DNA of 64,000 nucleotides from Candidatus Doudnabacteria bacterium (GTDB taxonomy: Bacteria > Patescibacteriota > Doudnabacteria > UBA920 > O2-02-FULL-48-8). This document shows, piece by piece, positions 4,676-60,410 of the stretch. The position numbers were made by a program, and so were the translations under genes. Where the stretch lies: positions 259,515 to 323,514 of the forward strand of contig JACPFQ010000004.1 of NCBI GenBank assembly GCA_016182875.1, in the 5' to 3' direction. A model generated the notes under the pieces. The model saw only the letters and a program-made list of their open reading frames with translations. It was not told the DNA's origin and searched no databases. Position 1 is the first letter of the stretch. Every line of letters starts with the position of its first letter.

Positions 4676-4765
4676 TAATTCGAAACTACGAACCGGGATC
4701 CGAATAATACGAACCCGTTCGTAGATTCGCATAAACGTTCGTAATTTCGCATTATATTTAAAAAA
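4676..4765. repeat. 88-bp imperfect palindrome in the nrdR-nrdJ spacer (copy 1)
   Basis: taataattcgaaactacgaacc...cgaataatacgaacccgttcgtagattcgcata...gttcgtaatttcgcattatatt; about 85% identical to 21077-21165. Confidence 0.7.
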
Positions 4766-4787
4766 AGAATTAACTAAAGAAACCAAT

Positions 4788-7391
4788 ATGCAGTACTACG
4801 AAGTCATCCAAAAGCATCAGTTATTAACCGCGGAAGAAGAACAACGGGTCAACGACAGCTTTTCCCAGAATGCGCTTAAGATGATGAAGAAGCGGTACCT
4901 GCTCCGCGACGAGAAGGGCACGATTTTGGAAGATCCCGCGCAAATGCTGCATCGCATCGCGCATTCTTTGGCTGACGTCGAGCGGCAGTACGGCAAAAAC
5001 CAGTTTGAAATCGAGCAAATCGAACGCGACTTTTTCTATATTATCGCCAACAAGGAATTTACCCCAGCCGGCCGGACCATCACCAACGCCGGCGCTCCTT
5101 CGGCTGTGGTTGCCAACTGCATCGTGCTACCCATCAAAGATTCGATGGAAAGCATTTTCCAAACCCTCAAGGACGCCGCCCAGCTGCAGAAAGCCGGCTC
5201 AGGCCTTGGCTTTTCGTTTACCCATCTCCGCCCCGCAGGCTCAATCGTCAAAAAATCCCAAGGCATGGCTTCTGGCCCGGTTTCATTTCTGCAGGTTTAC
5301 AATCAGGCGTTCGGAGTGATTAAACAGCAGGGCCGGCATGGGGCCAACATGGCCATTCTCCGGGTGGATCATCCTGATATTTTGGACTTCATTCACAGCA
5401 AGAAAATCGAAGGCCACATCCGCAACTTCAACATTTCAGTAGGGATTACCGATGAATTTATGGAGGCGGTAATCAATAAACCCAACGAGCCCTGGGTCTG
5501 CAAATTTGACGGAGAACCCATGAAGCCGCGCCGGATTGAGCGGGATGAGCATGGCTTAATCAAGAAAATCGAAGAGCTCGACATTTCCGCCGTCCAGTTG
5601 ATGGATGAGATTGTGTATGGCGCCTGGCGGAACGGCGAGCCGGGCGTGGTCTTCCTCGATGTCGTCAACAAAACCAATGTCTTGCCGGAGCTGGGCGAAA
5701 TTGACGCCTGCAACCCCTGCGGCGAGCAGTTCCTGCATCATTATGATGTTTGCAACTTAGGCTCCATTAATTTGGCCGTCTTGGTCAAAAACGGCCAGGT
5801 CGACTTTGAGCGGCTGCGGTTTGTGACCCGGACCGCGACCAGGTTTTTGGACAATGTCGTGGATGTTTCCAACTTCCCGGTCAAAAGCGTGGATGAGATG
5901 GCCAAAAATTCCAGGCGAATCGGCTTGGGCGTCATGGGCTTTGCCGACATGCTTTATCAACTGCGCGTGCGCTACGATTCGGCCGAAGGATACAAGGCGG
6001 CGGAAGACGTCATGCGCTGCATTCAGGAAGAGGCGCACCGGACTTCACAGGCCTTGGCCGAAGAAAAAGGCGTGTTCCCGCTTTACAATCTTTCAATCTA
6101 CAAAAAACTGGGCATTCCCATGCGCAACACAATGTTGACGACAGTAGCACCCACCGGCTCGATTTCCATGTTCTTCGACACTTCCTCCGGATGCGAGCCC
6201 AACTTCGCTTTGGCCTACACTAAGCAGGACAAAGACCGCATGCAGTATCTCTATGTCAACCAATATTTGGAAAAGGAACTCAAGGAGCGAGGCTTGTACA
6301 CTAAGGAGTTGATGGACCAAATAATTCATGAAGGCTCGCTTGCCAATATTGAGCTTCCGGAGGATCTCAAAGAGACTTTCCGCGTCTCCATGGACATTTC
6401 CGCCGAGTCTCACATCCGGGTCCAGGCGGCATTCCAGAAATGGGTGGACAATTCCATTTCCAAGACGATTAATTTTCCTTACAGCGCCACGGAAACAGAT
6501 GTCCGCCAAGGCTACATTCTAGCCTGGCAGCTTGGGTGCAAAGGTTGCACGGTTTACCGCGACGGCTCCAGAGAATTGCAGGTTTTGAATATCAACAAAA
6601 ATTTGACTGCGGACGGCAAAACCAAAATCGCAGAGAGTGCCTCCCGACGCGACTTTCAGTCGGTCGGGACCCCGACTTCCGAAGGAACGTCGGGGCAAAC
6701 TGTTCCCCAGCCAAATCCAAATCCAACCCCTATGCCCCAGCCCCAACCCCAACCCATGCCGCCGCCGGCAACTCCCAAGATGTCTGCCTCGCCGGCAGGC
6801 GGGACAATCTCGCCGCGCAAGCGGCCGGATGTCATGCACGGCGCCACGTATAAAGTCTCCACCGCCTATGGCAATCTCTATGTCACAGTCAACGAAGACG
6901 AGTTTGGCCCGTTTGAAGTGTTTTCCCAGCTCGGCAAGGCCGGCGGATTTTTCGGGGCCCAAACCGAAGCGCTATGCCGGCTGATTTCCCTAAGCCTGCG
7001 AAGCGGCATTTCGATTCAGGAAGTCGTAGACCAGCTGAAAGGGATTAGAGGGCCGGATCCCGTTTTCCATAACGGCGAGCGGATTCTTTCTTTGCCGGAC
7101 GCCATTGCCTCGGTGCTGGAAGGCCACACTAAGCGAGGCCAGCAGGAGCTGACGTTCGAACTGCCTAAAGCGGCGCCAAAAGTTGAACAGAAAGCAGAGC
7201 AGGAACTGGTTTACGAAACCGTCACGAAAGAAGTGCAACCCAGCGGTATCCTTGGAACAACAGTAGTCACGCAAAAATTTTCCATCGCTAACTTAGGCCA
7301 CGCGCCAGCTTGTCCTGATTGTTCCAACATGCTGGTCATGAAAGAAGGTTGCATGTCCTGCGAAGCGTGCGGGTTTTCGAAATGTGGTTAG
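4788..7391 (+). CDS. nrdJ: ribonucleoside-diphosphate reductase, class II (adenosylcobalamin-dependent), with C-terminal Cys-rich zinc ribbon
   Basis: 867 aa; VCNLGSINL, TVYRDGSR, NSISKTINFPY motifs; no small subunit gene nearby; B12 adenosyltransferase gene adjacent; Pro-rich low-complexity insert near the C-terminus. Confidence 0.85.
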   Translation: MQYYEVIQKHQLLTAEEEQRVNDSFSQNALKMMKKRYLLRDEKGTILEDPAQMLHRIAHSLADVERQYGKNQFEIEQIERDFFYIIANKEFTPAGRTITNAGAPSAVVANCIVLPIKDSMESIFQTLKDAAQLQKAGSGLGFSFTHLRPAGSIVKKSQGMASGPVSFLQVYNQAFGVIKQQGRHGANMAILRVDHPDILDFIHSKKIEGHIRNFNISVGITDEFMEAVINKPNEPWVCKFDGEPMKPRRIERDEHGLIKKIEELDISAVQLMDEIVYGAWRNGEPGVVFLDVVNKTNVLPELGEIDACNPCGEQFLHHYDVCNLGSINLAVLVKNGQVDFERLRFVTRTATRFLDNVVDVSNFPVKSVDEMAKNSRRIGLGVMGFADMLYQLRVRYDSAEGYKAAEDVMRCIQEEAHRTSQALAEEKGVFPLYNLSIYKKLGIPMRNTMLTTVAPTGSISMFFDTSSGCEPNFALAYTKQDKDRMQYLYVNQYLEKELKERGLYTKELMDQIIHEGSLANIELPEDLKETFRVSMDISAESHIRVQAAFQKWVDNSISKTINFPYSATETDVRQGYILAWQLGCKGCTVYRDGSRELQVLNINKNLTADGKTKIAESASRRDFQSVGTPTSEGTSGQTVPQPNPNPTPMPQPQPQPMPPPATPKMSASPAGGTISPRKRPDVMHGATYKVSTAYGNLYVTVNEDEFGPFEVFSQLGKAGGFFGAQTEALCRLISLSLRSGISIQEVVDQLKGIRGPDPVFHNGERILSLPDAIASVLEGHTKRGQQELTFELPKAAPKVEQKAEQELVYETVTKEVQPSGILGTTVVTQKFSIANLGHAPACPDCSNMLVMKEGCMSCEACGFSKCG

Positions 7392-15579: not shown

Positions 15580-15700
15580 ATTAGAATTTCCCTCCCCTTG
15601 CAGGGGAGGGACCAAGGGTGGGGTGGATAGAGGCAACCTCATCCCACCTCTCCCCCGACCCCTCTCCTGGAAGGAGAGGGGAGATCTAATCTGAAGTAAA
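15580..15700. mobile_element. solo (ORF-less) member of the hairpin/G-rich/C-rich element family
   Basis: ccctcccct tgc aggggaggg ... gggtggggtggat ... atcccacctc ... cccctctcc tgga aggagagggg; about 85% identical to 20664-20770. Confidence 0.6.
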
Positions 15701-16941: not shown

Positions 16942-17156
16942 CAAGGTCTTCGGCTCCGTCGAGCTCCTGCCGTAACGCGACGATTGTGCCTGCCCGCCGA
17001 AGTTTTAACGAAGGCGGGAGGGGAATCGTCTTTTATTTTTGCCCAGAATTGCTGGTATAATGGATAGAGCATTAGCCCGCAGTTCCTCCCCTCTCCTTCC
17101 AGGAGAGGAATTCTCTCCCTCATCGGCCGCCGGGGGCTGGTCGGGGGAGAGGTGGG

Positions 17157-17523
17157 ATGAGAATCAACAGGAATCTTTTGCAAAAGTCCAAGCTACAGCG
17201 CAAATCCCAGAATCCCTGGGAAGCCAAGCTTTGGTATTACCTCAGAGCTAAAAGATTCCAGAATTTTAAATTCAGAAGGCAAGTGGTTATTGGTCCTTTT
17301 ATCGTTGATTTTTATTTGCATAAGCTAAGGCTGATCATAGAACTCGACAGTGGGCAGCATAATGAGAATATAAATATACGTAAGGACCAGGGCAGGCAAA
17401 ATATTTATAGATCAAGGCTATACAGTCCTCAGATTCTGGAACAATGAGCTAGACGATAATATAGACGGCGTACTGGATACAATTTACAAAGCTTTAACCA
17501 CCTCTCTCGACCGGAATAATTAA
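17157..17523 (+). pseudogene. DUF559 endonuclease-domain protein, frameshifted (frame change near 17390-17405)
   Basis: N-terminal part KLWYYLRAKRFQNFKFRRQVVIGPFIVDFY..ELDSGQH in frame 0; C-terminal part GYTVLRFWNNELDDNIDGVLDTIY continues in frame +1. Confidence 0.7.
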
Positions 17524-17593
17524 CCTCAGAAGCGGTCGGTCTCTCCTGGAAGGAGAGACAACTGCTGCCTGACGCTTCAGCCAAACCAAATCC

Positions 17594-18511: not shown

Positions 18512-18514
18512 ATC

Positions 18515-18600
18515 GCCGCGTCGGCCTACGGCCTCCTCGCGAATGCGCATTTGCGAGGACCCCGGACTCCGATCCGGGGGACAAAGCAATCCAACCTAAA
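18515..18600. repeat. structured repeat (cggcctacggcctcctcgcgaatgcgcatttgcgagg...aaagcaatcc)
   Basis: Related copy at 13850-13940 overlapping the comEC 3' end. Confidence 0.45.
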
Positions 18601-18952
18601 CCCTATGGAAAACGACAAGTGGGAGGGCTTGAAAGAAGAAATCAAGAGGAAGTTTAAGATTCTTGAGGAAAAAACCGAAGACGTCCTTGGCGAGACTTCG
18701 GATGGCTTGGTCAAGCAAGGAGTGGCGGAGGTTTTGATTATAAAAACCCCCATGGGCAAAATCAAGCTCGTCCGCGAAAACCGGCCCGCGGTTTTGGACA
18801 AGAAATTCATTTACTCTCACCGCGCCGGCCAAGCCGGGCGCACGGAATACACTTTTTCGGACACGGAATTCTCGCACAAGCTCCGTGCGTTTAAGTGGGA
18901 TGAAGACGAAGATGACTGGAAGGAAATAGATGCCAAAAATTTCGGAAATTAA
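18551..18952 (+). CDS. hypothetical protein (probable start at MENDKWEG, about 18605)
   Basis: ORF with acidic C-terminus; overlaps the next gene start. Confidence 0.4.
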   Translation: MRGPRTPIRGTKQSNLNPMENDKWEGLKEEIKRKFKILEEKTEDVLGETSDGLVKQGVAEVLIIKTPMGKIKLVRENRPAVLDKKFIYSHRAGQAGRTEYTFSDTEFSHKLRAFKWDEDEDDWKEIDAKNFGN

Positions 18953-19865
18953 GGAGCGGGTTGGGACAGACTTAGCCAACGGTGTTCTGTCCACTTTGGC
19001 TTTTTTCGGCATGTATGGTTTGCCGCTATCTTCAAAAAGGGTTTTTGAACTGCTTTATCAAACCAGAGCCAGTAAGCAGCAGGTTAATGAGGCTTTGGAA
19101 GATTTGGTGTTAAGAAGCAAAGTTGTCAAACACGATAATCTTTACGCTCTGAAATCCTGGGATGACTTGCAGTCGCTGATGCGTGACGACGAAACAAAAA
19201 AACGCTGGAAGCAGGTCGACAAGTATTTCAAACTTTTGTCCAGCATTCCATTTATCGAGCATATTTCCATAATCCATAGTTTGGCCATCGGCAATGTCAA
19301 TTCCGAATCAGATATTGATTTTTTCGTAATCACGAAGCCAAATCGGCTTTATTTCGTGCGAAGCTTGGTTATCGTTTTATTCCGAATGTTCGGGGTTTAT
19401 AGAACCAGAACTCAAATCGCCGGCAGGCTAAGTTTTGGTTACTATGTCAGCAGCAAGGCTTTGGATTTATCCGAGGTTGAGGGCAAAGACCCATTCATGG
19501 CTTTTTGGTTCGCTTCGTTCCTGCCGATTTTCGGCAAGCAAACGTATTTAAAGCTTGCGGAAAGCAACCAATGGATTTATGAGTTCCTGCCGAATTATTC
19601 GCCGCAGGCCAGGATAGAAAACATCCGAAGAGCAGAATCAACTTTGCTCAAAAAGTTTCTGGAAACCCTGCTCCAGTTGCCCGCAGTTTTGATTGAACCG
19701 TTGCTTCGTTCTATTCATATCACTCACACTTTCAACCTTCCGGAGAATCACTGGGCGACCTCGACTACCATTGCCAACCGCGACGTCTTGAAACTGCAGG
19801 CGGTCAGCCAAAGGCGGCTGATAGTTGAAAAATATGAAAATCATCGCCGTAATATTGCTTTGTAA
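18930..19865 (+). CDS. putative nucleotidyltransferase-domain protein
   Basis: 311 aa; G..NSESDIDFFVI resembles the Pol-beta-type NTase signature. Confidence 0.45.
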   Translation: MPKISEIKERVGTDLANGVLSTLAFFGMYGLPLSSKRVFELLYQTRASKQQVNEALEDLVLRSKVVKHDNLYALKSWDDLQSLMRDDETKKRWKQVDKYFKLLSSIPFIEHISIIHSLAIGNVNSESDIDFFVITKPNRLYFVRSLVIVLFRMFGVYRTRTQIAGRLSFGYYVSSKALDLSEVEGKDPFMAFWFASFLPIFGKQTYLKLAESNQWIYEFLPNYSPQARIENIRRAESTLLKKFLETLLQLPAVLIEPLLRSIHITHTFNLPENHWATSTTIANRDVLKLQAVSQRRLIVEKYENHRRNIAL

Positions 19866-20583
19866 AAATTGGTGGCGTATCTTTTTGAGCAAGTTGTTTG
19901 TTCGCCAAAAGCTCAATCAAATAGAATTAAGAAACAAAACACGCTTCAAGGTCAATCAAAAATTGGAAACAGCTGAATTGTCCATGCTCGCCGACATCTG
20001 GCTTCGGCATGTTTATGAACGCGATTTTTTGAAAATTGAACCGACTGACGTGGTTTTGGACATAGGCGCTAACAAAGGATATTTTACAATTTACGCTGCC
20101 AGGCAAGCACAACATGTTTACAGCATCGAGCCTGTGCCGCGGTTGGTTGAATTTATCAAGTACAATACTTCCCTCAACAATCTTTTAAATGTTTCTGTTT
20201 TTGAGCAGGCCTTGTGGGACAGAACGGGAAGAGAAAATTTTTATATCTCGTCGAACAGCGGCGGACACGGCATGCGGCCGAAACCCTCAACGATCGGCGA
20301 AATAACCGTCGAGACAACTACTTTGGAACAGTTCTGCAGGGATAATAAAATTGAGAGAATTGATTTTCTGAAGCTCGACTGTGAGGGCTCGGAATACAAC
20401 ATTATTCTTACCTTAAGCGAAGCGATGCTTGGAAGAATAGGCAAAATCGCCATGGAGTGCCATGACTTTTTGAGTTTTCATCATTCGCAGATCCGGGATT
20501 TCCTGCAGGCCAAGGGCTTCGAAGTATTGGCGAAAAAAGGCTATTTGTATGCTTATCGGAAGGACTTGCAAAGCTTGCAATGA
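19825..20583 (+). CDS. FkbM family methyltransferase
   Basis: 252 aa; VLDIGANKGYFT, IEPVP, FLKLDCEGSEYNIL motifs. Confidence 0.75.
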   Translation: MKNMKIIAVILLCKNWWRIFLSKLFVRQKLNQIELRNKTRFKVNQKLETAELSMLADIWLRHVYERDFLKIEPTDVVLDIGANKGYFTIYAARQAQHVYSIEPVPRLVEFIKYNTSLNNLLNVSVFEQALWDRTGRENFYISSNSGGHGMRPKPSTIGEITVETTTLEQFCRDNKIERIDFLKLDCEGSEYNIILTLSEAMLGRIGKIAMECHDFLSFHHSQIRDFLQAKGFEVLAKKGYLYAYRKDLQSLQ

Positions 20584-20663
20584 CCGATTATAATTACTAG
20601 TACGAAAAAACAAAATGCCTTGTGGCATTTTTTTAACCAAAGCAATTGATATTAAACGGCAGC

Positions 20664-20770
20664 TTAGGATTTCCCTCCCCTCCCAGGGGAGGGACTAAGG
20701 GTGGGGTGGGTAAAGCAACCTTAAAGCCACCTCTCCCCCGACCCCTCTCCTGCGAGGAGAGGGGAGTTCT
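20664..20770. mobile_element. solo hairpin/G-rich/C-rich element, copy 2 (upstream of groES)
   Basis: ccctcccctcccaggggaggg...gggtggggtgggta...gccacctc...cccctctcctgcgaggagagggg; paralog of 15580-15700. Confidence 0.6.
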
Positions 20771-20788
20771 AAGCAGAAGGAGAACCAA

Positions 20789-21076: not shown

Positions 21077-22822
<1,746 letters not shown>

Positions 22823-22860: not shown

Positions 22861-23277
22861 ATGGCAGAACTCTTACATAAAGAGTTATCATATATAGTGC
22901 ATGGTGCGGCTATTGAAGTTCGAAAAGATTTTGGGCCAGGACACAAAGAAAAACTATATCAAACAGCATTTGCGCAGGAACTCGACCGCCGAAGTATAAA
23001 TTTCAAACAAGAGCCAGCAGTAAATATCTATTCACCTAAGGATGGACAAAAAGTCGGGTTATATTGACCCGACTTTGTTGTTGACGGTAAAATACTTGTC
23101 GAAATGAAGGCTGAAAAATTCGTTAATCGTGATGAGATCAAAAGAATCTATGATTATTTGCGAAACAGTAAATATGAATTAGCCTATTTTATAAACTTCG
23201 CTTCACCTAAGCTCTACGTCAGACGCATCATCTTTACTAATGATAGAAAGCTTTCAATGCCCAGTAAGTTCGTGTAA
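22861..23277 (+). pseudogene. GxxExxY protein (PD-(D/E)xK-like, TIGR04256-like) with in-frame TGA at 23065-23067
   Basis: ELSYIVHGAAIEVRKDFGPGHKEKLYQTAFAQEL...VGLY[TGA]PDFVVDGKILVEMKA...AYFINFASPKLYVRRII reads through in a single frame. Confidence 0.7.
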
Positions 23278-23345
23278 ATTCGTCTATTATTAGTGTTAAT
23301 TAGTGGTTTATTTGGCTAAGTTAAGCCTTTTTTGAGGCCAAAGTC

Positions 23346-23481
23346 TTGACAGCGCCGGCAAAAAGGTATATACTTTTGAGTTCTTTTTAAAATCGCATAT
23401 TATGCCAATTTCGTAACAGGACCGAAGTTTGGCGTTAAAAATTATACAAAAACAGCTCCTGTATTACGAGCTGTTTTTGTT
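23346..23481 (+). ncRNA. candidate small RNA unit (promoter TTGACA-17-TATACT to intrinsic terminator, about 100 nt transcript)
   Basis: ttgaca at 23346, tatact at 23369; hairpin acagctc ctgtattac gagctgt plus T-run at 23452-23481; no ORF longer than 5 codons. Confidence 0.25.
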
Positions 23482-23614
23482 TCCACTATTCTGGGTACTA
23501 ACTTGATTTAGCCCGCCCGAACGTACCGTTCGGTACGGGCGGGCAGGGAAATCATTTTATTGCCCTCTTAAGCAATCAAGCCTAAGTACCCAGAATTGTG
23601 GAAGTAACAGCAAG
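23479..23614 (+). repeat. array leader repeat copy A (gtttccactattctgggtac ... gtacccagaattgtggaagtaacagcaag) with nested GC hairpin insert
   Basis: Inverted arms flank a conserved core; ends 43 bp before the ORF 23657 start. Confidence 0.7.
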
Positions 23615-23656
23615 TTCTTTTGTTTTAGCGCTTTAAATGCGCAGCGGGAGTGTGAG

Positions 23657-24013
23657 ATGAAGAATATGCGATGTATTGCGTTGTACTTCGCCTTGGTCGC
23701 CTCGCTTGGTTTCAATGTCTACTACATGTTCAAAATGTCGGCGGGCCGCGTCGGCCAGGTCATGACAAGGGTCGGCAACATCCCGAACAACGAAGTGCAG
23801 TTCGAGCTCTTCGAAGTCAGCGCTGTCGGTCAGTCGAAGATGCTCTATGGCTGTTTGGAACTCCGCGCGGTGGAGAAGACCATGGCCTACCTCGGGACCA
23901 CGTATAGCGCGGACTATACGTACTTCACCGAACAGGGGTGGGTCACCATGCTGGTCGATCCGGTTCCGGTGACGTTCGCCGGCCTTCGATACATCAACCA
24001 GCGTATCGAGTAG
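23657..24013 (+). CDS. array ORF1: small secreted/membrane protein (118 aa)
   Basis: Signal-peptide-like N-terminus; GC about 60%. Confidence 0.5.
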   Translation: MKNMRCIALYFALVASLGFNVYYMFKMSAGRVGQVMTRVGNIPNNEVQFELFEVSAVGQSKMLYGCLELRAVEKTMAYLGTTYSADYTYFTEQGWVTMLVDPVPVTFAGLRYINQRIE

Positions 24014-24248
24014 TGCCAACAACCGGCGGCGCCGGAAACTGAGGGTAAGTAGGAGGAAGTTCCCAACCGCTTGGCGGCGGTCACAAATCATTTCGGATTA
24101 CTTCATTCTAAGTAATCCACCCAGAAGTGCGCCAACACTTCTCCTGTCCTGTGAGCTAGTACTCTAATACTGCGCCGTATTAGAGTGAAGCTTAGAGGAT
24201 AGGACATTAACAAACTTCTAATTTCTAATTACTAATTTCTAAAATTTT

Positions 24249-24340
24249 GTTTCCACGATTCTGGGCGTTAGTTAGAACTAAGGATGAATTCAGTAATACT
24301 GCCTTGAAAGTTAAATTGATACCCAGAATCGTGGAAGTGA
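24249..24340 (+). repeat. array leader repeat copy D (gtttccacgattctggg ... cccagaatcgtggaagtg)
   Basis: 13-bp perfect inverted arms; ends 40 bp before ORF 24380. Confidence 0.7.
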
Positions 24341-24379
24341 AAGATTGTCAGCACCTGACAAGGTGCAAAGTGAGGCAAC

Positions 24380-24613
24380 ATGAAGGGATTAAGCGCTCTC
24401 CTCGGAATCGCGATGATACTTCTGGCTCTCCGGGTTAGCTCTGTTGTTGAAGCCAACCCTGATCCATATAGGGAGATTCTCCCCGGGGTGATTGCGGTCG
24501 CCTCGATCGTCTGTCTCGTAATGGCCGCCGCCGGCCTGCTGCTGTACGCGATCTCGCCGCCGAGTAATCGGGACAACCTGCCGCGGCAGACGTCCTGTCG
24601 GTGGCACAAGTAA
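24380..24613 (+). CDS. array ORF2: small membrane protein (77 aa, two predicted TM helices)
   Basis: Hydrophobic; GC-rich. Confidence 0.45.
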   Translation: MKGLSALLGIAMILLALRVSSVVEANPDPYREILPGVIAVASIVCLVMAAAGLLLYAISPPSNRDNLPRQTSCRWHK

Positions 24614-24738
24614 GGCCAACGACGGCACTATGAATGGAGGACACAGAATGCATTAAGTAACTCGCGAACCATCGCGAATTGAATAGTGGGGCCAGAGCAA
24701 GCCAAACCTCTGTCCCCACATCCCGTTTCCAATATTTT

Positions 24739-24833
24739 GTTTCCACTATTCTGGGTACTAACTTGATTTAGCAGGGAAATCATTTTATTGCCCTCTTAAG
24801 CAATCAAGCCTAAGCACCCAGAATTGTGGAATT
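24739..24833 (+). repeat. array leader repeat copy B
   Basis: gtttccactattctgggtactaacttgatttagcagggaaatcattttattgccctcttaagcaatcaagcctaagcacccagaattgtgga; about 95% identical to copy A without its insert. Confidence 0.75.
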
Positions 24834-25101
24834 GAAAGGGAGGATGGACATGACGCGTGCGCAGCGCAAGAGATACGAAAGGAAGATGCAGAAGAAGGCC
24901 GAACGGGGCCTGATTGCGCCGACTCTCGTGATCGTCGGCGGGCTGGCCTTGGCGCAGGTCGGTTACTCGTTGATCTCTGAGCCGTTCAGGATCATCGAGT
25001 TCATCGGCCTCGGCATCGTCGCTCTCGCCGGAGCCGATTGGTTGAGAGTATTCGTGTACATGTATCGCAACCGGCCGACCTACGAGGATCGGCTGCTCTA
25101 G
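24826..25101 (+). CDS. array ORF3: small membrane protein (probable start MDMTRAQ at 24847)
   Basis: RBS gggagg; basic N-terminus followed by two TM helices. Confidence 0.45.
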   Translation: MELKGRMDMTRAQRKRYERKMQKKAERGLIAPTLVIVGGLALAQVGYSLISEPFRIIEFIGLGIVALAGADWLRVFVYMYRNRPTYEDRLL

Positions 25102-25109
25102 GAGGGCAG

Positions 25110-25460
25110 ATGAAGCTCAGAACCATCGGTTGGGTGCTCGCGTTTGTCGCCGCGGCCATTGTCGGCGCGATCGGCGACAACATGTACATGCAGGCGCGGC
25201 TTGAAGCCCAGCTCGGCTCATGCCCCGCCACGGTCCAGGTCCTGCAAGACGCCCTCGACAACTCGGCTGTGCTGAAAGAACAGCTGACCGAGTGGTTCGT
25301 GGCCACCGACGAACAAACCAAGCCGCTTCGGCTGACCTCCTTCACTGTCAGCCAAAAGGGCGAGGAGAAGCGCTGGGTCGGAGCCGCGGTCGAGAAGGAC
25401 CTGCTGCTCTCGCCGATCGGCAGAATCGTCGGCCGTGTCGTCGGCGAAGCCGGTCCCTAG
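25110..25460 (+). CDS. array ORF4: membrane-anchored small protein (116 aa)
   Basis: RBS ggaggg 6 nt upstream of ATG 25110; N-terminal TM helix. Confidence 0.45.
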   Translation: MKLRTIGWVLAFVAAAIVGAIGDNMYMQARLEAQLGSCPATVQVLQDALDNSAVLKEQLTEWFVATDEQTKPLRLTSFTVSQKGEEKRWVGAAVEKDLLLSPIGRIVGRVVGEAGP

Positions 25461-25610
25461 CGTTCCGTGAGGCGCGATGAGTGAGAGGTCTATTCGACTC
25501 TCCTCATCCGCTCTCTTCCTAAATTTTCGAGATTCGAAGATTTTGGAAGGGAGCAATCCCGAAACGGATTTAAATACTTTAATACATTATCGTATTAAAG
25601 TGAATAGGTT

Positions 25611-25739
25611 AATAGTTAACAGCCACGAGCCAAGCTCGTGTCCGCCATTCTGGGTACTAACTTGATTTAGCAGGGAAATCAAATTATGCCCTCAAAGCAA
25701 TCAAGCCATTGCACCCAGAGTCGTGGAAGTAACAGCAAG
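25611..25739 (+). repeat. array leader repeat copy C (with upstream conserved module aatagttaacagccacgagccaagctcgtg)
   Basis: Same core as A/B; the upstream module is shared with copy G (26905-26945). Confidence 0.7.
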
Positions 25740-25776
25740 ATCTTTGATAAAAAAAGTCGCCTTGGTTAGGCGACGG

Positions 25777-26158
25777 CTAGTATAGAATATAGTTAGTAAG
25801 GCAGAACAATTCCGAGTTTGTCGGCCACTTTTTTGGCCCAAGCTTCCAGGACTTCCAGGCGTTTGCGCATGATGATATGCTCTTCCTGGAAAGTTTTGAC
25901 GATTTTAGTAAGCCCGTCAGGTTTGTTAAGAGAATGTCAATCTTTGAATCAGTATGCGCTAAATCCTCTTTAGTGACAAAGACTTCTTTCTCAGCTTCGA
26001 TTAAATTTTTGATGTCCTGGGGAGTAAGCATTTATGCTGTTAATTAATATTAAAATTTGATCTATATGTTTTTGAACCTTAGTAATATCCGCTTCCAGCT
26101 TGTCGAACTTCTCGTCCAAGTATCCCAATAATGGTTTAAAATTAATCTCAGCCATAAT
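25777..26158 (-). pseudogene. AT-rich coiled-coil protein remnant broken into at least three frames
   Basis: MAEINFKPLLGYLDEKFDKLEADITKVQ... / MLTPQDIKNLIEAEKEVFVTKEDL... / KIVKTFQEEHIIMRKRLEVLEAWAKKVADKLGIVLPY lie in different frames on the minus strand. Confidence 0.25.
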
Positions 26159-26204
26159 AGTGCATTTATTCTAGTCCTTTGAAAATTTCCAGTCAATATA
26201 TTTT

Positions 26205-26252
26205 GTTTCTACGGTTCTGGGCGTTAGAATTAGCACCCAGAATTGTGGAGGC
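26205..26252 (+). repeat. array leader repeat copy F (short form: gtttctacggttctgggcgttagaattagcacccagaattgtggaggc)
   Basis: Minimal inverted-arm version; ends 19 bp before ORF 26271. Confidence 0.65.
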
Positions 26253-26270
26253 AAACAAGCTTCTACTAAT

Positions 26271-26669
26271 ATGCAGGAGGACTGCATGACGATAAACCAT
26301 GAGTTTAAGGTCGGCGATCGTGTCAGGTTTTCTCGAGCCGGAATTGGCGACTCGATTGACCTTTCTGAGGAAAGAGTCGCTCAACTGAGACAGAAAATCG
26401 CTCAGTTGAAAGATCAGGCAGTCGAGAAAGAACTGGCTGTAGACCAGCAGATTGAACTGGAAGCGAGCATGGATGAATTGGATTACATCCTCTTGCTCAG
26501 TTCAAACTCAATCTACTGCGTAGTCGAAAAGAGAACGCAGTGTACGATTTTCGAGAACACCAGCGGTGTCTCGAAAGAAGTTTTGGCCCAGGACATCAAG
26601 CTTGAAGATGTTTTTGTGCCAAATCTCTACGACGAGCTTTTCCCGGTTGACTGGTTCGAACTCGCTTAA
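26271..26669 (+). CDS. array ORF6: hypothetical soluble protein (132 aa)
   Basis: RBS gcaggagg; no TM segment. Confidence 0.45.
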   Translation: MQEDCMTINHEFKVGDRVRFSRAGIGDSIDLSEERVAQLRQKIAQLKDQAVEKELAVDQQIELEASMDELDYILLLSSNSIYCVVEKRTQCTIFENTSGVSKEVLAQDIKLEDVFVPNLYDELFPVDWFELA

Positions 26670-26797
26670 GTAGTCCTGTTCGGAAATCTCTCAAGGTTGG
26701 TTGGGTTAGAAGCAAGCCCCGTGTGGTGTAGCCGTCGTGCAATTACCAAGAAGTGCAGTTAGGTCCAAGGTGTAAGTTGATTAATTTCTCTTCCACC

Positions 26798-26853
26798 TTT
26801 CTATTTCCCTTCAATGGGACTGATGAGTCCGTGAAATCCGGACGAAATAGAAA
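26798..26853 (+). ncRNA. candidate minimal type III hammerhead ribozyme
   Basis: Stem III tttctat/atagaaa; U17; stem I tccc-ttcaat-ggga; CUGAUGA at 26820-26826; stem II GUCCG-ugaaauc-CGGAC with G10.1:C11.1; GAAA at 26844-26847. Confidence 0.55.
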
Positions 26854-26855
26854 TT

Positions 26856-27085
26856 GTTTCCACGATTCTGAATACTTAATGTTGTAATACAGGAACTAAA
26901 TAGTTAACAGTCACGAGCTAAGCTCGTGTCCACCATTCTGGGCACTTATCTTGGTTTAGTCCCGACGCTACGGTTCCGACGCAAGGTCGGAACAGGTCGG
27001 GACAGGCAGGGAATCATATATAAATGCCCTCGAGCCTTAAGCAATCAATGCTCTAAGTACCCAGAATTGTGGAAGTAACAGCAAG
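26856..27085 (+). repeat. array leader repeat copy G (composite, 230 bp, extra nested hairpins gtcccgac...gtcgggac)
   Basis: gtttccacgattctg ... aatagttaacagtcacgagctaagctcgtgtccaccattctgggcac ... gtacccagaattgtggaagtaacagcaag; ends 18 bp before ORF 27104. Confidence 0.7.
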
Positions 27086-27103
27086 TTCTTTTGAGCGCGA
27101 AAT

Positions 27104-38875: not shown

Positions 38876-39100
38876 TATAATTTTAGGGCAGTTGGGAGTT
38901 AAAACCCCCTCTTAGAATAAGAGTGGGTAGGGTGAGTTAGACGTAAAGAACCCCTGCCTCTAACCCCTCTGCTCAGCCTAATTCTTAGCATCTCCCCTTG
39001 TTCCAAGGGGAGATGGAACTGCGGCCTTACGCTTTGCCTTAAAGAATTAACTTGCAGTTAAACCCCTCTTAGAATAAGAGGGGGTAGGGGGAGTTAGAAC

Positions 39101-39419
39101 ATGAGCTATTTGTATAATAATTTAAAGCTTAAAAACTTCAGGCGTAAACTAAGAAGCAACCAGACAGACTGTGAAGCCTTGCTCTGGTCTGTGTTGCGAA
39201 ACAAGCAATATAGGCAATTATATCTTAGATTTCTTTTGTCCTAAATTAAGATTGGGAATTGAGCTTGACGGTGGTCAGCACGCCAAGCAAAAACTCTACG
39301 ACAACCAGAGAACCAAATATCTTGAATCACAGAATATTAAAGTCCTTAGATTCTGGGATAACGAGGTGCTTGAGAATCTTGAGGGAGTTTATCAAAAGAT
39401 CTTAGATCATTGCCTCTAA
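39101..39419 (+). pseudogene. DUF559 endonuclease-domain protein disrupted by an internal deletion or frameshift (two frames)
   Basis: MSYLYNNLKLKNFRRKLRSNQTDCEALLWSVLRNKQ (frame 2) then IGNYILDFFCPKLRLGIELDGGQH...KVLRFWDNEVLENLEGVY (frame 0). Confidence 0.7.
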
Positions 39420-39717
39420 CCCCCTCTAACTCCCCCTTGTTCCAAGGGGGAGGATCCCAATTCTTTTCGGGCATTAGTAAATCCCCTCCAATTGCTTGAT
39501 TTCGCTGGAAGTTTTACTATATCCTTACTTAACTTATACTTAGCATTGATATAGCATTTATTTTAGTGTCATCCTGAAACAAGTTTTTGGGATCTCGCTT
39601 AGTTACTGAAAAACCCCCGCCGAAAGGCGGGGGTTTTGTTTGTTGACAGGCTGAATCATTTAATTTATCATAAGTACGAAAGTTATACTTTCTAACTAAA
39701 TTGATTTAGGGAAACTC

Positions 39718-40929: not shown

Positions 40930-40989
40930 TTTAAGGATCAGGCAGCAGTTTACCCCTCCTCTTTAGAGGAGGGGTAGGGGAGGAGTTCT

Positions 40990-41388
40990 ATGGTTTTGCC
41001 CAAAACAAAGCTACGCAGAGAATTAAGGCATAATTCAACTCCAGCGGAAAAAGTTTTCTGGGCTATGATTTGCGACAGAAAAGTATTAGATCTAAAATTC
41101 CGCCGTCAGCACAGCATCGGGCCTTACATAGTTGATTTCTACTGCGCGGCACTTAGGTTAATTATAGAGATTGACGGCGATACTCATGGAACTGTTGAGG
41201 GAATTAAAGCTGATAAAAAGCGAACCGCTTATTTAGAATCACTGGGCTATACTGTCCTAAGATACGCAAATTCAGATATACTAAATAACCTTGAAGGAGT
41301 ATTCCAGGATTTAACCAGCAAGCTTCAGAAACTACTGCCTAATTCCACCTCCTCACCCATCCTCTCCTCCTTGCAGGAGGAGAGGTGA
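40990..41388 (+). CDS. DUF559 endonuclease-domain protein (intact)
   Basis: 132 aa; EKVFWAMICDRKVLDLKFRRQHSIGPYIVDFYC..LRLIIEIDGDTH...GYTVLRYANSDI family pattern. Confidence 0.8.
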   Translation: MVLPKTKLRRELRHNSTPAEKVFWAMICDRKVLDLKFRRQHSIGPYIVDFYCAALRLIIEIDGDTHGTVEGIKADKKRTAYLESLGYTVLRYANSDILNNLEGVFQDLTSKLQKLLPNSTSSPILSSLQEER

Positions 41389-41438
41389 AACTGCGAGAAA
41401 CTAGGTCAATTAGAAATTGATTCTATATAACAATAACA

Positions 41439-44151: not shown

Positions 44152-44306
44152 GCTTAACCCCGCCTCGCCTTGGCTCGCTAAAGGGGTAGAGCACAAGCGT
44201 AAAGCTTTGGCTCTACCTCCCCTAACCCCTCCTATTCTAGGAGGGGAAAAAACCAAGAGGCGAGTCTAGGCAGGCAATCCTAATCATTAATCATTATGCC
44301 TAAAAT

Positions 44307-58276: not shown

Positions 58277-58917
58277 CGAGAATGCGGTATATGTTTAACG
58301 GCAGCGCAACGCGTATCGGTAAGCGTTTGACGTTTAGCGATCAGATTTCCCCCCTTGGAACAAGGGGGGATCAAGGGGGGTTAGACGCTGGCTTCACCCT
58401 CATCGAGGTCATAATCGTGGTCTTCATGCTCGGGATGGCCATGCTCGTGCTGACCAGCCTTTTCCTCAACCAAAACCAAGTTTACCAAAGCCAGACCGCG
58501 GAGCTTAACGTCACGGCCGATGCCCGGTTCGCCTTGGACGATATTGATTCCTCGGTTCGAGCCGCGGACGTGGTGGCGGCAAGCTATAGTTCATATACTA
58601 CAGGAACGCAAGTTTTGGTTCTGCAGATTCCTTCCATCAATGCTTCCAACCAAATCATCGCGGCGGCTTATGATTATTTCGTTTACTATCTAACCGGCAG
58701 TGATTTCTTTCGGCAAATCTTCCCCAATGCATCAAGCAGCCGGCAGGCCACAACGAAAAAAATAGCTTCCAATGTCACAGGCTTGCTTTTCAGTTACGAC
58801 AATGGCGACTCGGCTTTGGTTAAGCAAGTGACCACGGACTTAACCATCCAGCAGTCAGGCGGAAGGTACAATCGGTCAATCACAATTTCTTCCAAGTCGA
58901 GATTAAGAAATAACTAA
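58273..58917 (+). CDS. prepilin-type protein with unusually long leader (pilin motif GFTLIEVIIVVFML at residue about 40)
   Basis: 214 aa; the leader region contains a poly-C/poly-G hairpin (ccccccttggaacaagggggg) at 58350-58385. Confidence 0.55.
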   Translation: MTRMRYMFNGSATRIGKRLTFSDQISPLGTRGDQGGLDAGFTLIEVIIVVFMLGMAMLVLTSLFLNQNQVYQSQTAELNVTADARFALDDIDSSVRAADVVAASYSSYTTGTQVLVLQIPSINASNQIIAAAYDYFVYYLTGSDFFRQIFPNASSSRQATTKKIASNVTGLLFSYDNGDSALVKQVTTDLTIQQSGGRYNRSITISSKSRLRNN

Positions 58918-60397: not shown

Positions 60398-60410
60398 ATA
60401 ATTAAAGCGT

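What the first reader, a model, noticed from the sequence alone, without database searches (positions are those of the whole stretch)
17081..17560. DUF559 (Vsr-like endonuclease) gene inside an element with G-rich/C-rich inverted termini and flanking hairpins; gene frameshifted
The left end has hairpin cctctcc-ttcc-aggagagg followed by the G-rich terminus gggggagaggtggg directly abutting the ATG at 17157. The right end has the complementary C-rich terminus ccacctctctc embedded in the last codons (..TTSLD), followed by hairpin gtctctcc-tggaagg-agagac. The ORF has a +1 frameshift near 17395. The same architecture recurs at 38990-39460 and 40950-41400, and ORF-less solo versions occur at 15580-15700 and 20664-20770. 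This supports a family of small mobile or homing cassettes encoding a DUF559 nuclease. Two of the three gene copies are decayed, as expected for selfish elements.
Basis: partly seen in the sequence, partly recalled or inferred. Interest (0 to 1): 0.7.

Follow-up and report, generated by a model that had tools for sequence, protein, structure and literature searches.

The report
Nuclease gene flanked by triplex-motif repeats
A broken copy of a small Vsr-like (DUF559) endonuclease gene sits between two inverted "hairpin plus mirror-repeat" DNA motifs of the type known in E. coli as BoxC/TMECO intrastrand-triplex repeats, and related genomes gain and lose such cassettes, which suggests this long-orphan repeat family has a nuclease partner.

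Summary
Window 17079-17565 is a 487-bp cassette: a frameshifted DUF559 (PF04480) gene bracketed by inverted terminal repeats. Two more gene-bearing copies (B decayed, C intact), three ORF-less pairs and two single ends lie in the same 64 kb.

Each terminus is more specific than "hairpin plus G-rich run". It reads 5'-pyrimidine arm, loop, purine arm, 2-4 nt linker, mirror copy of the purine arm (A may become T). That is an intrastrand purine-motif triplex motif (TM), the class of E. coli BoxC/PIT/TMECO.

Related Doudnabacteria genomes have empty sites where the window has ORF-less pairs or cassette A, and occupied sites where the window is empty.

In 80 DUF559 loci from many phyla, 68 carry pyrimidine-purine hairpins within 200 nt (3.9/kb versus 0.14/kb further away). 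The E. coli DUF559 gene ycjD has an exact TMECO 167 nt away.

Best reading: a selfish, homing-like nuclease cassette whose gene-less TM pairs are derivatives or landing pads. Mobility is inferred from presence/absence. The nuclease's action on TMs is untested. I found no paper linking DUF559 to these repeats, and Holder et al. 2015 reported no associated mobility gene.

The parts
17079..17565 (+). Cassette A, whole element: inverted triplex-motif ends plus a DUF559 pseudogene, inserted between the fpg promoter and the fpg start codon
   Evidence: Relatives have TATAAT 6-9 nt from the fpg ATG.
17079..17084 (+). Outer terminal inverted repeat GCAGTT; its partner AACTGC is at 17560-17565
   Evidence: found 0-11 nt outside 7 of 14 ends, against 0.01 expected per end.
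17090..17108 (+). Left hairpin: pyrimidine arm CCTCTCCT, loop TCC, purine arm AGGAGAGG
17109..17142 (+). 34-nt insert, itself able to form a hairpin, in the linker between the purine arm and the third strand. The solo copies have 3 nt here.
   Evidence: Comparable linker hairpins occur in L090 and L007.
17143..17156 (+). G-rich third strand GGGGGAGAGGTGGG. It contains GGAGAGGT, the mirror of AGGAGAGG with A changed to T. It also serves as a Shine-Dalgarno-like sequence for the ORF.
   Evidence: the rule was tested.
17157..17523 (+). DUF559 (Vsr-like PD-(D/E)xK) pseudogene with a +1 frameshift at about 17390-17394 and substitutions C52L and G63S
17498..17508 (-). Right third strand. It is C-rich on the + strand; on the - strand it reads GAGAGAGGTGG.
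17509..17538 (-). Linker hairpin of the right end (cgaccg...cggtcg)
   Evidence: A sub-threshold Whalefall-1 match covers 17499-17561.
17539..17559 (-). Right hairpin gtctctcc-tggaa-ggagagac
17056..17061 (+). TATAAT box of the fpg promoter, now 532 nt from the fpg ATG at 17594
   Evidence: by comparison with L003, L005, L007 and L008.
15581..15696 (.). ORF-less pair solo1: triplex motifs at 15589-15624 (+) and 15646-15681 (-), with a 21-nt spacer
   Evidence: The site is empty in L008.
20658..20776 (.). ORF-less pair solo2: triplex motifs at 20672-20707 (+) and 20729-20764 (-)
   Evidence: The site is empty in L003, L005, L007 and L008.
38888..39022 (.). ORF-less pair solo3, in tandem just upstream of copy B, bounded by GCAGTT...AACTGC
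   Evidence: (family D20).
39054..39452 (+). Cassette B: triplex motifs at 39063-39095 (+) and 39418-39452 (-). The DUF559 gene at 39101-39419 is disrupted by an internal deletion (K36-R38 and about 10 further residues) and a frame change.
40945..41394 (+). Cassette C: triplex motifs at 40953-40985 (+) and 41347-41385 (-). The DUF559 ORF at 40990-41388 is intact (132 aa) and all invariant residues are present.
   Evidence: The same locus appears in L001.
44215..44246 (-). Single triplex motif in an intergenic region
58348..58382 (+). Single triplex motif inside the leader-peptide part of a pilin-like ORF

Best explanation
Cassette A is a dead copy of a small selfish element found in many bacterial phyla.

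**Composition of the element**
- One gene for a 110-135-aa DUF559 endonuclease. This is a Vsr-like PD-(D/E)xK nuclease with the E-x-D-x3-H-x8-D catalytic residues.
- The gene is packed tightly between two inverted intrastrand triplex motifs. Each motif is a pyrimidine arm, a loop, a purine arm, a linker of about 3 nt, and a mirror G/A/T strand.

**Shown**
- The anatomy.
- Its recurrence across phyla.
- Presence/absence at orthologous sites.
- Decay of copies.
- ORF-less pairs whose ends match those of gene-bearing copies.

**Inferred**
- The gene is transcribed by read-through from host promoters and uses the GGAGG-like third strand as its ribosome-binding site.
- The nuclease recognises its own termini and cuts there. 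It may read the palindromic duplex, or the folded hairpin/triplex that the G-rich strand can adopt when single-stranded.
- A hydrolytic nuclease cannot join DNA, so spread would depend on host break repair and recombination, that is, homing-like copying.
- Dispersed ORF-less TM pairs would be deletion derivatives that also offer homologous landing pads.
- The absence of target-site duplications fits this route.

**Consequence here.** In this genome the insertion separated fpg from its formerly leaderless promoter.
For: **Protein**
- All three ORFs match DUF559 (E 6e-33, 9e-33 and 2e-26).
- A DUF559 profile hits PDB 3HRL (E 4e-35). It also hits 3R3P, the catalytic domain of the homing endonuclease I-Bth0305I (E 5e-5).
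- I-Bth0305I is a Vsr-like enzyme that cuts a pseudopalindromic site (PMC3239194).

**Termini in the window**
- There are 10 exact triplex motifs, with 2-4 nt linkers. The four complete pairs have their third strands facing inward.

**Termini across fetched loci**
- 144 distinct motifs were found.
- The linker is exactly 3 nt in 112 of 144.
- Opposite an A of the purine arm, the third strand has A 177 times, T 165 times and C 9 times.
- The exact mirror-order pattern occurs in 85 of 274 flank tests, against 25 of 274 for direct order.
- Linker expansions are themselves hairpins. They differ between L007 and L090 by compensated changes.

**Association with DUF559**
- 68 of 80 DUF559 loci from many phyla have a pyrimidine-purine hairpin within 200 nt.
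- The density is about 3.9/kb near the gene and 0.14/kb further away.
- The third strand ends a median of 14 nt before the start codon. The stop codon lies at or inside the right motif.

**Mobility**
- Empty and occupied orthologous sites exist in six related Doudnabacteria loci.
- A copy 72% identical to C has the same ends in a different gene context (L002).
- An intact cassette in a 69% GC soil contig has nearly the same motif sequence as the window's ORF-less pairs (L124).

**ORF-less excess**
- Of 80 metagenome loci holding this terminal sequence, 2 carry DUF559.

**E. coli**
- ycjD has an exact TMECO 167 nt downstream, with a partial second DUF559 3' end in between.
- TMECO counts are 19-30 in strains of phylogroups A, B1 and C, which carry ycjD.
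- Counts are 1-2 in B2 strains, where eefRABCD occupies the locus instead of ycjD.
Against: - No enzymology exists for any small DUF559 protein.
- A PD-(D/E)xK hydrolase has no strand-transfer chemistry.
- No target-site duplication or other insertion signature identifies a mechanism.
- Most TM copies have no DUF559 gene nearby.
- E. coli strains of phylogroups D, E and F keep 6-15 TMECOs, although the cited survey places eefRABCD rather than ycjD at that locus in those groups. TMs therefore persist without the gene.
- The E. coli correlation rests on one or two phylogenetic events.
- Motif polarity relative to the gene is not fixed.
  - The third strands face outward in the Deinococcus proteolyticus copy.
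  - The repeats are direct in the PCC 7002 pAQ6 copy.
  - Mirror matches split 50 inner to 35 outer.
- No near-identical copies occur in the window (solos are 84% identical), so there is no sign of recent activity here.
- Holder et al. detected the triplex only in single-stranded oligonucleotides. They did not detect it in duplex DNA or by in vivo DMS footprinting.
Confidence: 0.55

Rival explanations
1. The TM repeats are an independent entity, spread or generated by some other process. DUF559 is a host or domesticated structure-specific nuclease that processes hairpin or triplex DNA at these repeats as a genome-maintenance function. Alternatively it is a homing gene that merely parasitises pre-existing TM palindromes without moving them.
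For: - Most TM copies lack a nearby DUF559 gene.
- TMs persist in E. coli phylogroups reported to carry eefRABCD instead of ycjD.
- ycjD is conserved at one locus across phylogroups A, B1 and C.
- The gene always sits at the centre of the palindrome, as expected for insertion into a symmetric target.
- The Vsr relatives are repair enzymes.
Against: - Two of three copies in the window are decayed, and L007 holds a truncated remnant. That is not expected of a maintained host function.
- Copies occur at different, non-orthologous sites in close relatives.
- The ends travel with the gene into new contexts and across very different GC contents.
Confidence: 0.2
2. DUF559 is only a passenger gene inside a miniature inverted-repeat element that an unrelated transposase, encoded elsewhere, mobilises in trans.
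For: - The elements have terminal inverted repeats.
- ORF-less copies are more numerous than gene-bearing ones.
- The DUF559 fold has no known transposase chemistry.
Against: - The same small gene family is paired with the same structural type of end in many phyla, including candidate phyla radiation bacteria, Cyanobacteria, Nitrospirae, Bacteroidota, Proteobacteria, Deinococcus and Chloroflexi. That is not expected of a random passenger.
- No target-site duplication is seen.
- No transposase is seen next to any copy.
Confidence: 0.1
3. The flanking motifs act at the RNA level, as terminators, mRNA stabilisers or translational control of a potentially toxic nuclease. The cassettes are ordinary genes, not mobile DNA.
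For: - The third strand contains GGAGG at Shine-Dalgarno distance from the ATG.
- The pyrimidine arm could sequester it.
- The right end of A gives a sub-threshold match to the Rfam family Whalefall-1 RNA.
Against: - ORF-less pairs and single motifs exist with no gene to regulate.
- Presence/absence polymorphism is observed.
- The triplex rule, with T allowed opposite A, is kept on the G-rich strand at both ends. Those are opposite DNA strands, and the two ends differ in sequence.
- Earlier work found no promoter or terminator activity for the E. coli motifs, as cited in PMC4666352.
Confidence: 0.05
4. The similarity of the termini is a chance property of GC-rich intergenic sequence.
For: The arms are short (7-11 nt) and of low complexity.
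Against: - No such hairpins appear in 10 shuffles of the window, against 10 loci observed.
- Enrichment next to DUF559 genes is 28-fold.
- Linker length peaks sharply at 3 nt.
- DNA folds of the ORF-less pairs give z scores of -3.8 to -4.6.
Confidence: 0.01

Closest known systems
BoxC / PIT / TMECO intrastrand triplex repeats of E. coli and other bacteria (Hoyne and Maher 2000; Holder et al. 2015, PMC4666352)
   Same: - The architecture matches: C-rich arm, 3-6 nt loop, G-rich arm, 3-nt loop, second G-rich mirror arm.
- The repeats occur singly or as inverted pairs that combine two sequence types.
- They are intergenic and are associated with local genome variability.
- The core GGGAGAGGG-N3-GGGTGAGGG is shared with the end sequence of the window's ORF-less pairs, with L124 and with TMECO.
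   Different: - The exact TMECO pattern has no match in the window, so the window holds other sequence families of the same class.
- The published work reports no associated gene or mobility function. Here the motifs bracket a nuclease gene.
REPIN-RAYT systems (REP palindromes and their associated tyrosine transposase)
   Same: - A gene in one or a few copies is flanked by inverted copies of a short structured repeat.
- That repeat also exists in many gene-less single or paired copies in the same chromosome.
- The systems are mostly chromosomal and rare on plasmids and phages.
   Different: - The protein is a PD-(D/E)xK hydrolase, not an HUH/Y1 transposase.
- The repeat is a hairpin plus mirror strand, not a simple REP hairpin.
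- The gene copies here are multiple and often decayed.
I-Bth0305I and the EDxHD family of homing endonucleases (PMC3239194)
   Same: - The catalytic domain is homologous and Vsr-like (profile E 5e-5 to 3R3P).
- The same acidic and histidine catalytic residues are present.
- The characterised enzyme cuts a pseudopalindromic target.
   Different: - I-Bth0305I lives in a group I intron and has an N-terminal NUMOD/HTH DNA-binding region.
- The proteins here are free-standing, are 110-135 aa long and have no extra DNA-binding domain.
- They lie in intergenic palindromes.
Vsr very-short-patch repair endonuclease
   Same: - The fold and catalytic core are the same. YcjD-type profiles detect Vsr (PMC1189080).
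- Some sources name these proteins 'very-short-patch-repair endonuclease'.
   Different: - There is no Pfam Vsr match at E 0.01 or better.
- No dcm-type methyltransferase lies next to any copy.
- The copies are multiple, decaying and polymorphic in position.
IS200/IS605-type elements and other hairpin-ended single-strand transposons
   Same: - The ends are structured and subterminal.
- There is no target-site duplication.
- The elements are small.
   Different: - No HUH TnpA or TnpB is present.
- The ends here are inverted repeats with an added mirror strand.
Whalefall-1 RNA motif (Rfam RF01762; Weinberg et al. 2010)
   Same: - The consensus reads UCUCUCCUU..GGAGAGA, then a second hairpin, then G-rich GGGUGAGGA. 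This layout matches the right end of A, with its linker hairpin.
- The match covers the full model.
   Different: - The score is 23.1 bits against a gathering score of 37, so A's end is not a member.
- The family was described as a non-coding RNA from whale-fall metagenomes only.

Membership tests
DUF559 (Pfam PF04480) endonuclease-like proteins | Significant match to the family HMM above the curated cut-off | tested here: met
   copy C scores 113.4 bits, frame-corrected A 112.8 bits and frame-corrected B 92.7 bits, against a cut-off of 20.6; the profile hits PDB 3HRL at E 4e-35.
DUF559 (Pfam PF04480) endonuclease-like proteins | Conserved catalytic residues (E60, D62, H66, D75 in copy C numbering) and the other invariant positions | tested here: met
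   All are present in C. A keeps the four catalytic residues but has C52L and G63S plus a frameshift. B lacks K36-R38 and about 10 further residues.
EDxHD homing endonucleases (I-Bth0305I type) | Vsr-like catalytic domain with the E/D/H/D motif | tested here: met
   3R3P, E 5e-5; invariant residues.
EDxHD homing endonucleases (I-Bth0305I type) | Gene embedded in a self-splicing intron or intein | tested here: not met
   all three copies are free-standing in intergenic DNA, and Rfam finds no intron.
EDxHD homing endonucleases (I-Bth0305I type) | N-terminal NUMOD/HTH DNA-binding region | tested here: not met
   the DUF559 domain covers residues 7-112 of the 132-aa copy C, and no other domain is found.
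EDxHD homing endonucleases (I-Bth0305I type) | Double-strand cleavage of an empty target site followed by copying of the gene | not testable with these tools
   This needs biochemistry or genetics.
Vsr mismatch endonuclease | Match to the Vsr family model and pairing with a dcm-type cytosine methyltransferase | tested here: not met
   One search lists no Vsr family at E 0.01 or better. Neighbouring genes are PPIase, NDK, Fpg, a TPR protein and an FkbM-type methyltransferase, with no Dcm.
Intrastrand triplex motif, class II purine motif (BoxC/PIT/TMECO class) | C-rich arm, 3-6 nt loop, complementary G-rich arm, loop of about 3 nt, and a second G-rich arm that mirrors the first (G opposite G; A or T opposite A) | tested here: met
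   10 exact motifs in the window; 144 motifs, with a 3-nt linker in 112; mirror order beats direct order, 85 to 25.
Intrastrand triplex motif, class II purine motif (BoxC/PIT/TMECO class) | Match to the E. coli TMECO sequence pattern CCCTCNCCC-N3-6-GGGNGAGGG-N3-GGGNGAGGG | tested here: not met
   0 matches in the window. The pattern does match next to E. coli ycjD.
Intrastrand triplex motif, class II purine motif (BoxC/PIT/TMECO class) | Physical formation of a triplex by the single strand | not testable with these tools
   This was shown by CD and NMR for TMECO oligonucleotides only (PMC4666352). ViennaRNA predicts only the Watson-Crick hairpins.
Miniature inverted-repeat transposable elements (MITEs) | Short (under 200 bp), gene-less, with terminal inverted repeats, in multiple copies related to a gene-bearing element | tested here: met
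   three ORF-less pairs of 116-135 bp whose ends match A or B; a family of about 150 nt with at least 25 copies in metagenomes.
Miniature inverted-repeat transposable elements (MITEs) | Target-site duplication and a cognate transposase | tested here: not met
   no duplicated flanks at A, C, solo2 or solo3. No transposase gene lies nearby.
REPIN-RAYT | HUH/Y1 (IS200-like) tyrosine transposase flanked by REP hairpins | tested here: not met
   the protein is DUF559, with no Y1 transposase match.
Whalefall-1 RNA (RF01762) | Covariance-model score at or above the gathering threshold | tested here: not met
   23.1 bits against 37.

The most novel reading that the evidence does not exclude
Small DUF559 nucleases, including E. 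coli YcjD, may be the cognate enzymes of the intrastrand-triplex repeats (BoxC/PIT/TMECO and their relatives) across bacteria. They would recognise the folded hairpin-plus-third-strand DNA and cut there. This would parallel REPIN-RAYT, but with a Vsr-like hydrolase and a DNA triplex as the recognition element. It would be the first natural protein partner, and the first biological role, for intramolecular triplex DNA in bacteria. It would also explain the genome instability reported around these repeats.
Probability: 0.3. Interest if true: 0.85.

Novelty: new variant of a known kind. Interest (0 to 1): 0.72.

Why it matters
BoxC/PIT/TMECO repeats have been catalogued since the 1990s. They form very stable triplexes in vitro and mark variable regions of E. 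coli genomes. Yet the most detailed study states that no mobility gene or function could be attached to them (PMC4666352).

DUF559 is a very large family of unknown function. A search of the 50%-identity cluster library found 25,340 clusters at E 1e-3 or better. The family includes E. coli YcjD.

If the two belong together, both orphans get a testable function. The experiment is simple: purify YcjD or copy C and offer it TM-containing single- and double-stranded DNA. The result would either add a new class of nuclease-plus-structured-repeat element to bacterial mobile DNA or give intramolecular triplex DNA a natural protein ligand.

Locally, the element matters because it has cut the fpg gene off from its promoter, and another copy sits inside a pilin leader sequence.

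Tried and rejected
**Searches that gave nothing**
- The look-up of the 99%-identical Doudnabacteria protein P0001 found no record.
- A metagenome scan with the TPR protein upstream of copy C, meant to find empty sites for C, returned nothing.
- Rfam at gathering threshold found nothing at any element. At the E-value threshold it gave only the sub-threshold Whalefall-1 match and spurious miRNA hairpin matches.

**A flawed control**
- My first permutation control for the mirror rule re-drew the permutation for every sub-stem, so it matched almost as often as the real order.
- I replaced it with an exact G/non-G pattern test on maximal stems, comparing mirror order with direct order.

**A hypothesis I had to drop**
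- I first assumed the third strand always faces the gene.
- The Deinococcus proteolyticus copy (outward-facing), the PCC 7002 copy (direct repeats) and the 50:35 inner-to-outer split reject this.

**Readings considered and not pursued**
- G-quadruplex formation by the purine arm plus third strand. Some ends contain four G-tracts, but this does not explain the mirror order or the fixed 3-nt linker.
- Integron attC-like sites. No integrase is present.
- CRISPR. The spacing is not regular.
- Vsr/Dcm repair pairing. No Dcm is present.

**Analyses not run or uninformative**
- A protein-versus-end covariation (Mantel-type) test was not run. Co-inheritance of gene and ends would produce the same signal with or without functional coupling.
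- PADLOC gave only weak hits (homing endonuclease 1e-5), so there is no support for a defence-system reading.
Full report
**What is at 17081-17560**

- The ORF from 17157 reads as a DUF559 protein for 96 codons. It then continues in the +1 frame to a stop at 17521-17523.
- After frame correction it matches Pfam DUF559 at E 9e-33.
- The corrected protein keeps the four catalytic residues. It has lost two otherwise invariant residues (C52L, G63S) and two nearly invariant ones. I therefore read it as a decaying pseudogene, not an assembly error.
- The element is bounded by GCAGTT (17079-17084) and AACTGC (17560-17565). This outer 6-bp inverted repeat lies 0-11 nt outside 7 of 14 ends in the window, where 0.01 per end is expected.
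- The window comes from a Candidatus Doudnabacteria genome (candidate phyla radiation). The neighbouring Fpg protein is 100% identical to an NCBI metagenome-assembled-genome protein on a 327-kb contig. Copy C is 99% identical to a protein annotated from that phylum on a contig of the same length.

**Other copies in the window**
- Copy C (40945-41394) has an intact 132-aa ORF.
- Copy B (39054-39452) has lost about a dozen codons, including the KFR of the KFRRQ motif, and changes frame.
- ORF-less pairs lie at 15581-15696 and 20658-20776 and are 84% identical to each other. A third lies at 38888-39022, in tandem with B.
- Single ends lie at 44215-44246 and 58348-58382.
- Pyrimidine-loop-purine hairpins of this kind occur at 10 loci in the window and never in 10 shuffles.
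- The ORF-less families match particular gene copies.
  - Both ends of A are the same sequence type as the right ends of solo1 and solo2, apart from a 27-34-nt insert.
  - The left end of solo3 is 92% identical to the left end of B.

**What the termini really are**

The ends, read inward, follow one rule: 5'-pyrimidine arm, loop, purine arm, 2-4 nt, mirror image of the purine arm. Examples:
- left end of C: GAGGAGGGG-TA-GGGGAGGAG
- right end of B: GGGGGAG-TTA-GAGGGGG
- left end of solo1: AGGGGAGGGA-CCA-AGGGTGGGGT

An inverted repeat followed by a mirror repeat, with G opposite G and A or T opposite A, is the signature of an intramolecular purine-motif triplex (G.G-C, A.A-T, T.A-T triads; established nucleic-acid chemistry).

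Tests of the rule:
- A strict search finds 10 such motifs in the window, all with zero mismatches.
The linker is exactly 3 nt in 112 of them. Opposite an A of the purine arm the third strand carries A 177 times, T 165 times and C 9 times.
- For arms whose pattern is not self-symmetric, the exact mirror pattern is found in 85 of 274 flank tests, against 25 of 274 for the same arm in direct order.
- Where the linker is longer (both ends of A; the L090 and L007 cassettes), the extra sequence is itself a small hairpin. That would keep the purine arm and third strand adjacent. The L007 and L090 linker hairpins differ by compensated changes.
- T is as common as A in the third strand, so the complementary C-rich strand would not obey pyrimidine-motif rules. 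The constraint therefore sits on the G-rich strand, which is the top strand at one end and the bottom strand at the other. The two ends also differ in sequence. I infer selection at the DNA level rather than on the mRNA. This is inference, not a measurement.

**This motif class is known**
- Holder et al. 2015 (PMC4666352) describe the E. coli "TMECO" motif, 5'-CCCTCNCCC-N3-6-GGGNGAGGG-N3-GGGNGAGGG. It was earlier called BoxC or PIT.
- There are 23 copies in K-12, including five inverted pairs that each combine two sequence types. Copy numbers differ widely between strains, and local genome variability is raised.
- Triplex formation was shown by CD and NMR for the single strand. It was not seen for the duplex or by in vivo DMS footprinting.
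- The authors state that they never found remnants of transposases or integrases near the motifs.
- The exact TMECO pattern is absent from the window. The core GGGAGAGGG-N3-GGGTGAGGG is shared by TMECO, by the end type of the window's ORF-less pairs, and by an intact cassette in a 69% GC soil contig.

**Is the link between DUF559 and the motif general?**
- I scanned one genome per GTDB species with a DUF559 alignment and kept the 80 best loci. They cover candidate phyla radiation groups, Cyanobacteria and Melainabacteria, Nitrospirae and Nitrospinae, Bacteroidota, Proteobacteria, Chloroflexi, Planctomycetes, Verrucomicrobia, Acidobacteria and others.
- 54 have a pyrimidine-purine hairpin within 200 nt upstream, 52 downstream, 38 on both sides, and therefore 68 of 80 on at least one side. 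The density is about 3.9/kb near the gene and 0.14/kb more than 400 nt away.
- 39 of 80 have an exact, inward-facing motif under strict criteria.
- The third strand ends a median of 14 nt before the start codon. The stop codon lies at or inside the right motif. This explains the proline/serine/glycine-rich tails seen on many database homologues.
- Polarity is not universal.
  - In Deinococcus proteolyticus the third strands face outward.
  - In the PCC 7002 plasmid copy the flanking repeats are direct.
  - Neisseria gonorrhoeae has a decayed motif upstream.
- In E. coli K-12 the only DUF559 gene, ycjD, has an exact TMECO 167 nt downstream. A partial duplicate of a DUF559 3' end lies in between. 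Holder's own Table S2 lists that motif between fabI and ycjD.
- ycjD is present in phylogroups A, B1 and C and is replaced by eefRABCD in B2 and most D/E/F lineages (PMC12817139).
- Holder's per-strain counts are 19-30 in typical A/B1/C strains, 1-2 in B2 strains and 6-15 in strains of D, E and F. I assigned strains to phylogroups from my own knowledge.
- The direction of this correlation fits the link. It is phylogenetically confounded, and it shows that motifs persist without the gene.

**Mobility**

Gene order around fpg is conserved in related Doudnabacteria, which allows site-by-site comparison.

| Site | Window | L003 | L005 | L007 | L008 | L090 |
|---|---|---|---|---|---|---|
| Upstream of groES | solo2 | empty | empty | empty | empty | no TM; other small palindromes |
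| PPIase-NDK spacer | solo1 | not compared | not compared | too diverged | 5-bp spacer | not examined |
| fpg TATAAT box to ATG | cassette A (532 nt apart) | 6-9 nt | 6-9 nt | 6-9 nt | 6-9 nt | single right-end motif, same sequence type |
| Downstream of fpg | no cassette (other small palindromes) | empty | empty | 5'-truncated remnant | empty | intact 137-aa DUF559 cassette |

- For solo2, the insertion boundaries can be placed between ttaaac and aaggag.
- In all four relatives with a short promoter-to-ATG distance, the fpg mRNA looks leaderless.
- A copy 72% identical to C, with the same arm sequences, lies in an unrelated gene context in another genome (L002).
- No flanking duplication is visible at any insertion.
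- An exact-pattern scan of metagenomes with the terminal sequence of the solo and A type hit more than 120 contigs with GC from 0.53 to 0.73. Of the 80 fetched, 2 carry DUF559 and 1 has it adjacent. One organism carries at least 25 copies of an ORF-less pair of about 150 nt.
- DUF559 relatives are rare on plasmids (44 of 72,556 records) and phages (7 of 50,697).

**The protein**
- A DUF559 profile hits PDB 3HRL ("endonuclease-like protein") at E 4e-35. It hits 3R3P at E 5e-5.
- 3R3P is the catalytic domain of I-Bth0305I, a Vsr-like homing endonuclease that dimerises and cuts a pseudopalindromic site with 2-base 5' overhangs.
- The residues E60, D62, H66 and D75 are invariant in my alignment.
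- The proteins here have no DNA-binding domain beyond the 110-residue core.
- NCBIfam's YcjD model matches at E 2e-24, below its equivalog cut-off.
- The family is very large: 25,340 clusters at 50% identity with E 1e-3 or better.

**Mechanism: what I commit to**

I read the element as a selfish nuclease cassette. Three points follow, all inferred.
- The enzyme can only hydrolyse DNA, and its nearest characterised relative is a homing endonuclease. The most economical mechanism is therefore cutting at or within the terminal-motif palindrome, followed by host recombinational repair that copies the cassette.
- Dispersed ORF-less pairs would be both deletion derivatives and homologous landing pads.
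- Whether the enzyme reads the duplex palindrome or the folded single strand is open. I give the triplex-recognition version about 0.3.

Arguments against are listed in the Best explanation section. The main ones are the lack of any enzymology, the many gene-less motifs, the variable polarity and the absence of recent copies here.

**Literature check and its limits**
- Full-text searches were run for DUF559, ycjD, intrastrand triplex, potential intrastrand triplex, BoxC/REP/RAYT, EDxHD and Whalefall-1.
- None found a paper that links DUF559 to these repeats.
- The library lacks most subscription journals, so prior description cannot be excluded.

**Verdict**
It connects a known orphan repeat class with a known orphan nuclease family across bacteria.

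Noticed in passing
window 23474-27091: Five or six copies of a palindromic unit of about 130 nt occur at irregular spacings of 490-1350 nt. The unit reads GTTTCCACTATTCTGGGTACT...AGTACCCAGAATTGTGGAAG, with an internal GC hairpin in the copy read. The copies lie between small ORFs, some of which look like membrane proteins. This is a different repeat family from the triplex-motif elements.
   Followed up: partly
window 58348-58382 within ORF 58273-58917: A single triplex motif lies in frame inside the N-terminal leader of a pilin-like protein (N_methyl motif GFTLIEV just downstream). It encodes ..ISPLGTRGDQGGL... The insertion may be tolerated because prepilin leaders are cleaved off.
   Followed up: partly
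window 17056-17061 and 17594; L003, L005, L007, L008: In relatives, fpg has a TGnTATAAT box only 6-9 nt before the ATG, so its mRNA looks leaderless. In the window the box is 532 nt away, and no Shine-Dalgarno sequence or obvious new promoter precedes the fpg ATG.
   Followed up: partly
window 18512-18604: The spacer after fpg holds two other GC-rich palindromes (cctcgcgaatgcgcatttgcgagg and ccccggactccgatccgggg). They are absent from relatives, where the next gene follows within 0-10 nt. L090 has yet other small palindromes upstream of groES. Intergenic regions of these genomes seem to collect several kinds of small palindromic inserts.
   Followed up: no
window 19825-20583: An FkbM-type methyltransferase gene lies between the 311-aa ORF and groES. 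In four related genomes that position is empty, and the 310-aa gene is followed directly by groES.
   Followed up: no
L089 (E. coli K-12 NC_000913) 5241-5407, minus strand: Between ycjD and its TMECO lies a partial duplicate of the 3' end of a DUF559 gene (ggagacggtgctggagaatattc...). A decayed hairpin also overlaps the ycjD stop codon. This suggests a former tandem or converted cassette.
   Followed up: partly
window 17499-17561 (-) and Rfam RF01762: The consensus of the Rfam family Whalefall-1 RNA reads like a triplex-motif end with a hairpin in its linker. That family, known only from whale-fall metagenomes, may be the terminal repeat of a DUF559-type element rather than a non-coding RNA.
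   Followed up: partly
window 4717-4774 and 21118-21175; also 23268-23313 and 60358-60403: Two pairs of AT-rich repeats with GTTCGT-type direct half-sites are 79-91% identical. One example is GTTCGTAGATTCGCATA..GTTCGTAATTTCGCATTATA. One copy lies immediately upstream of groEL, so they may be promoter or operator elements.
   Followed up: no
window 45442-45980 versus 53477-54015; 1563-1705 versus 30138-30281: A 540-bp segment is duplicated 8 kb apart at 75-82% identity, inside large Thr/Pro-rich surface-protein genes. A separate repeat pair of about 140 nt is 85-90% identical, and one copy lies near an AdoCbl-II riboswitch (1391-1445, minus strand).
   Followed up: no
Protein hits P0242, P0246, P0250, P0260: Some database proteins contain two or three DUF559 stretches in one ORF. 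This may reflect tandem cassettes read through their termini, like the tandem solo3-B arrangement in the window.
   Followed up: no
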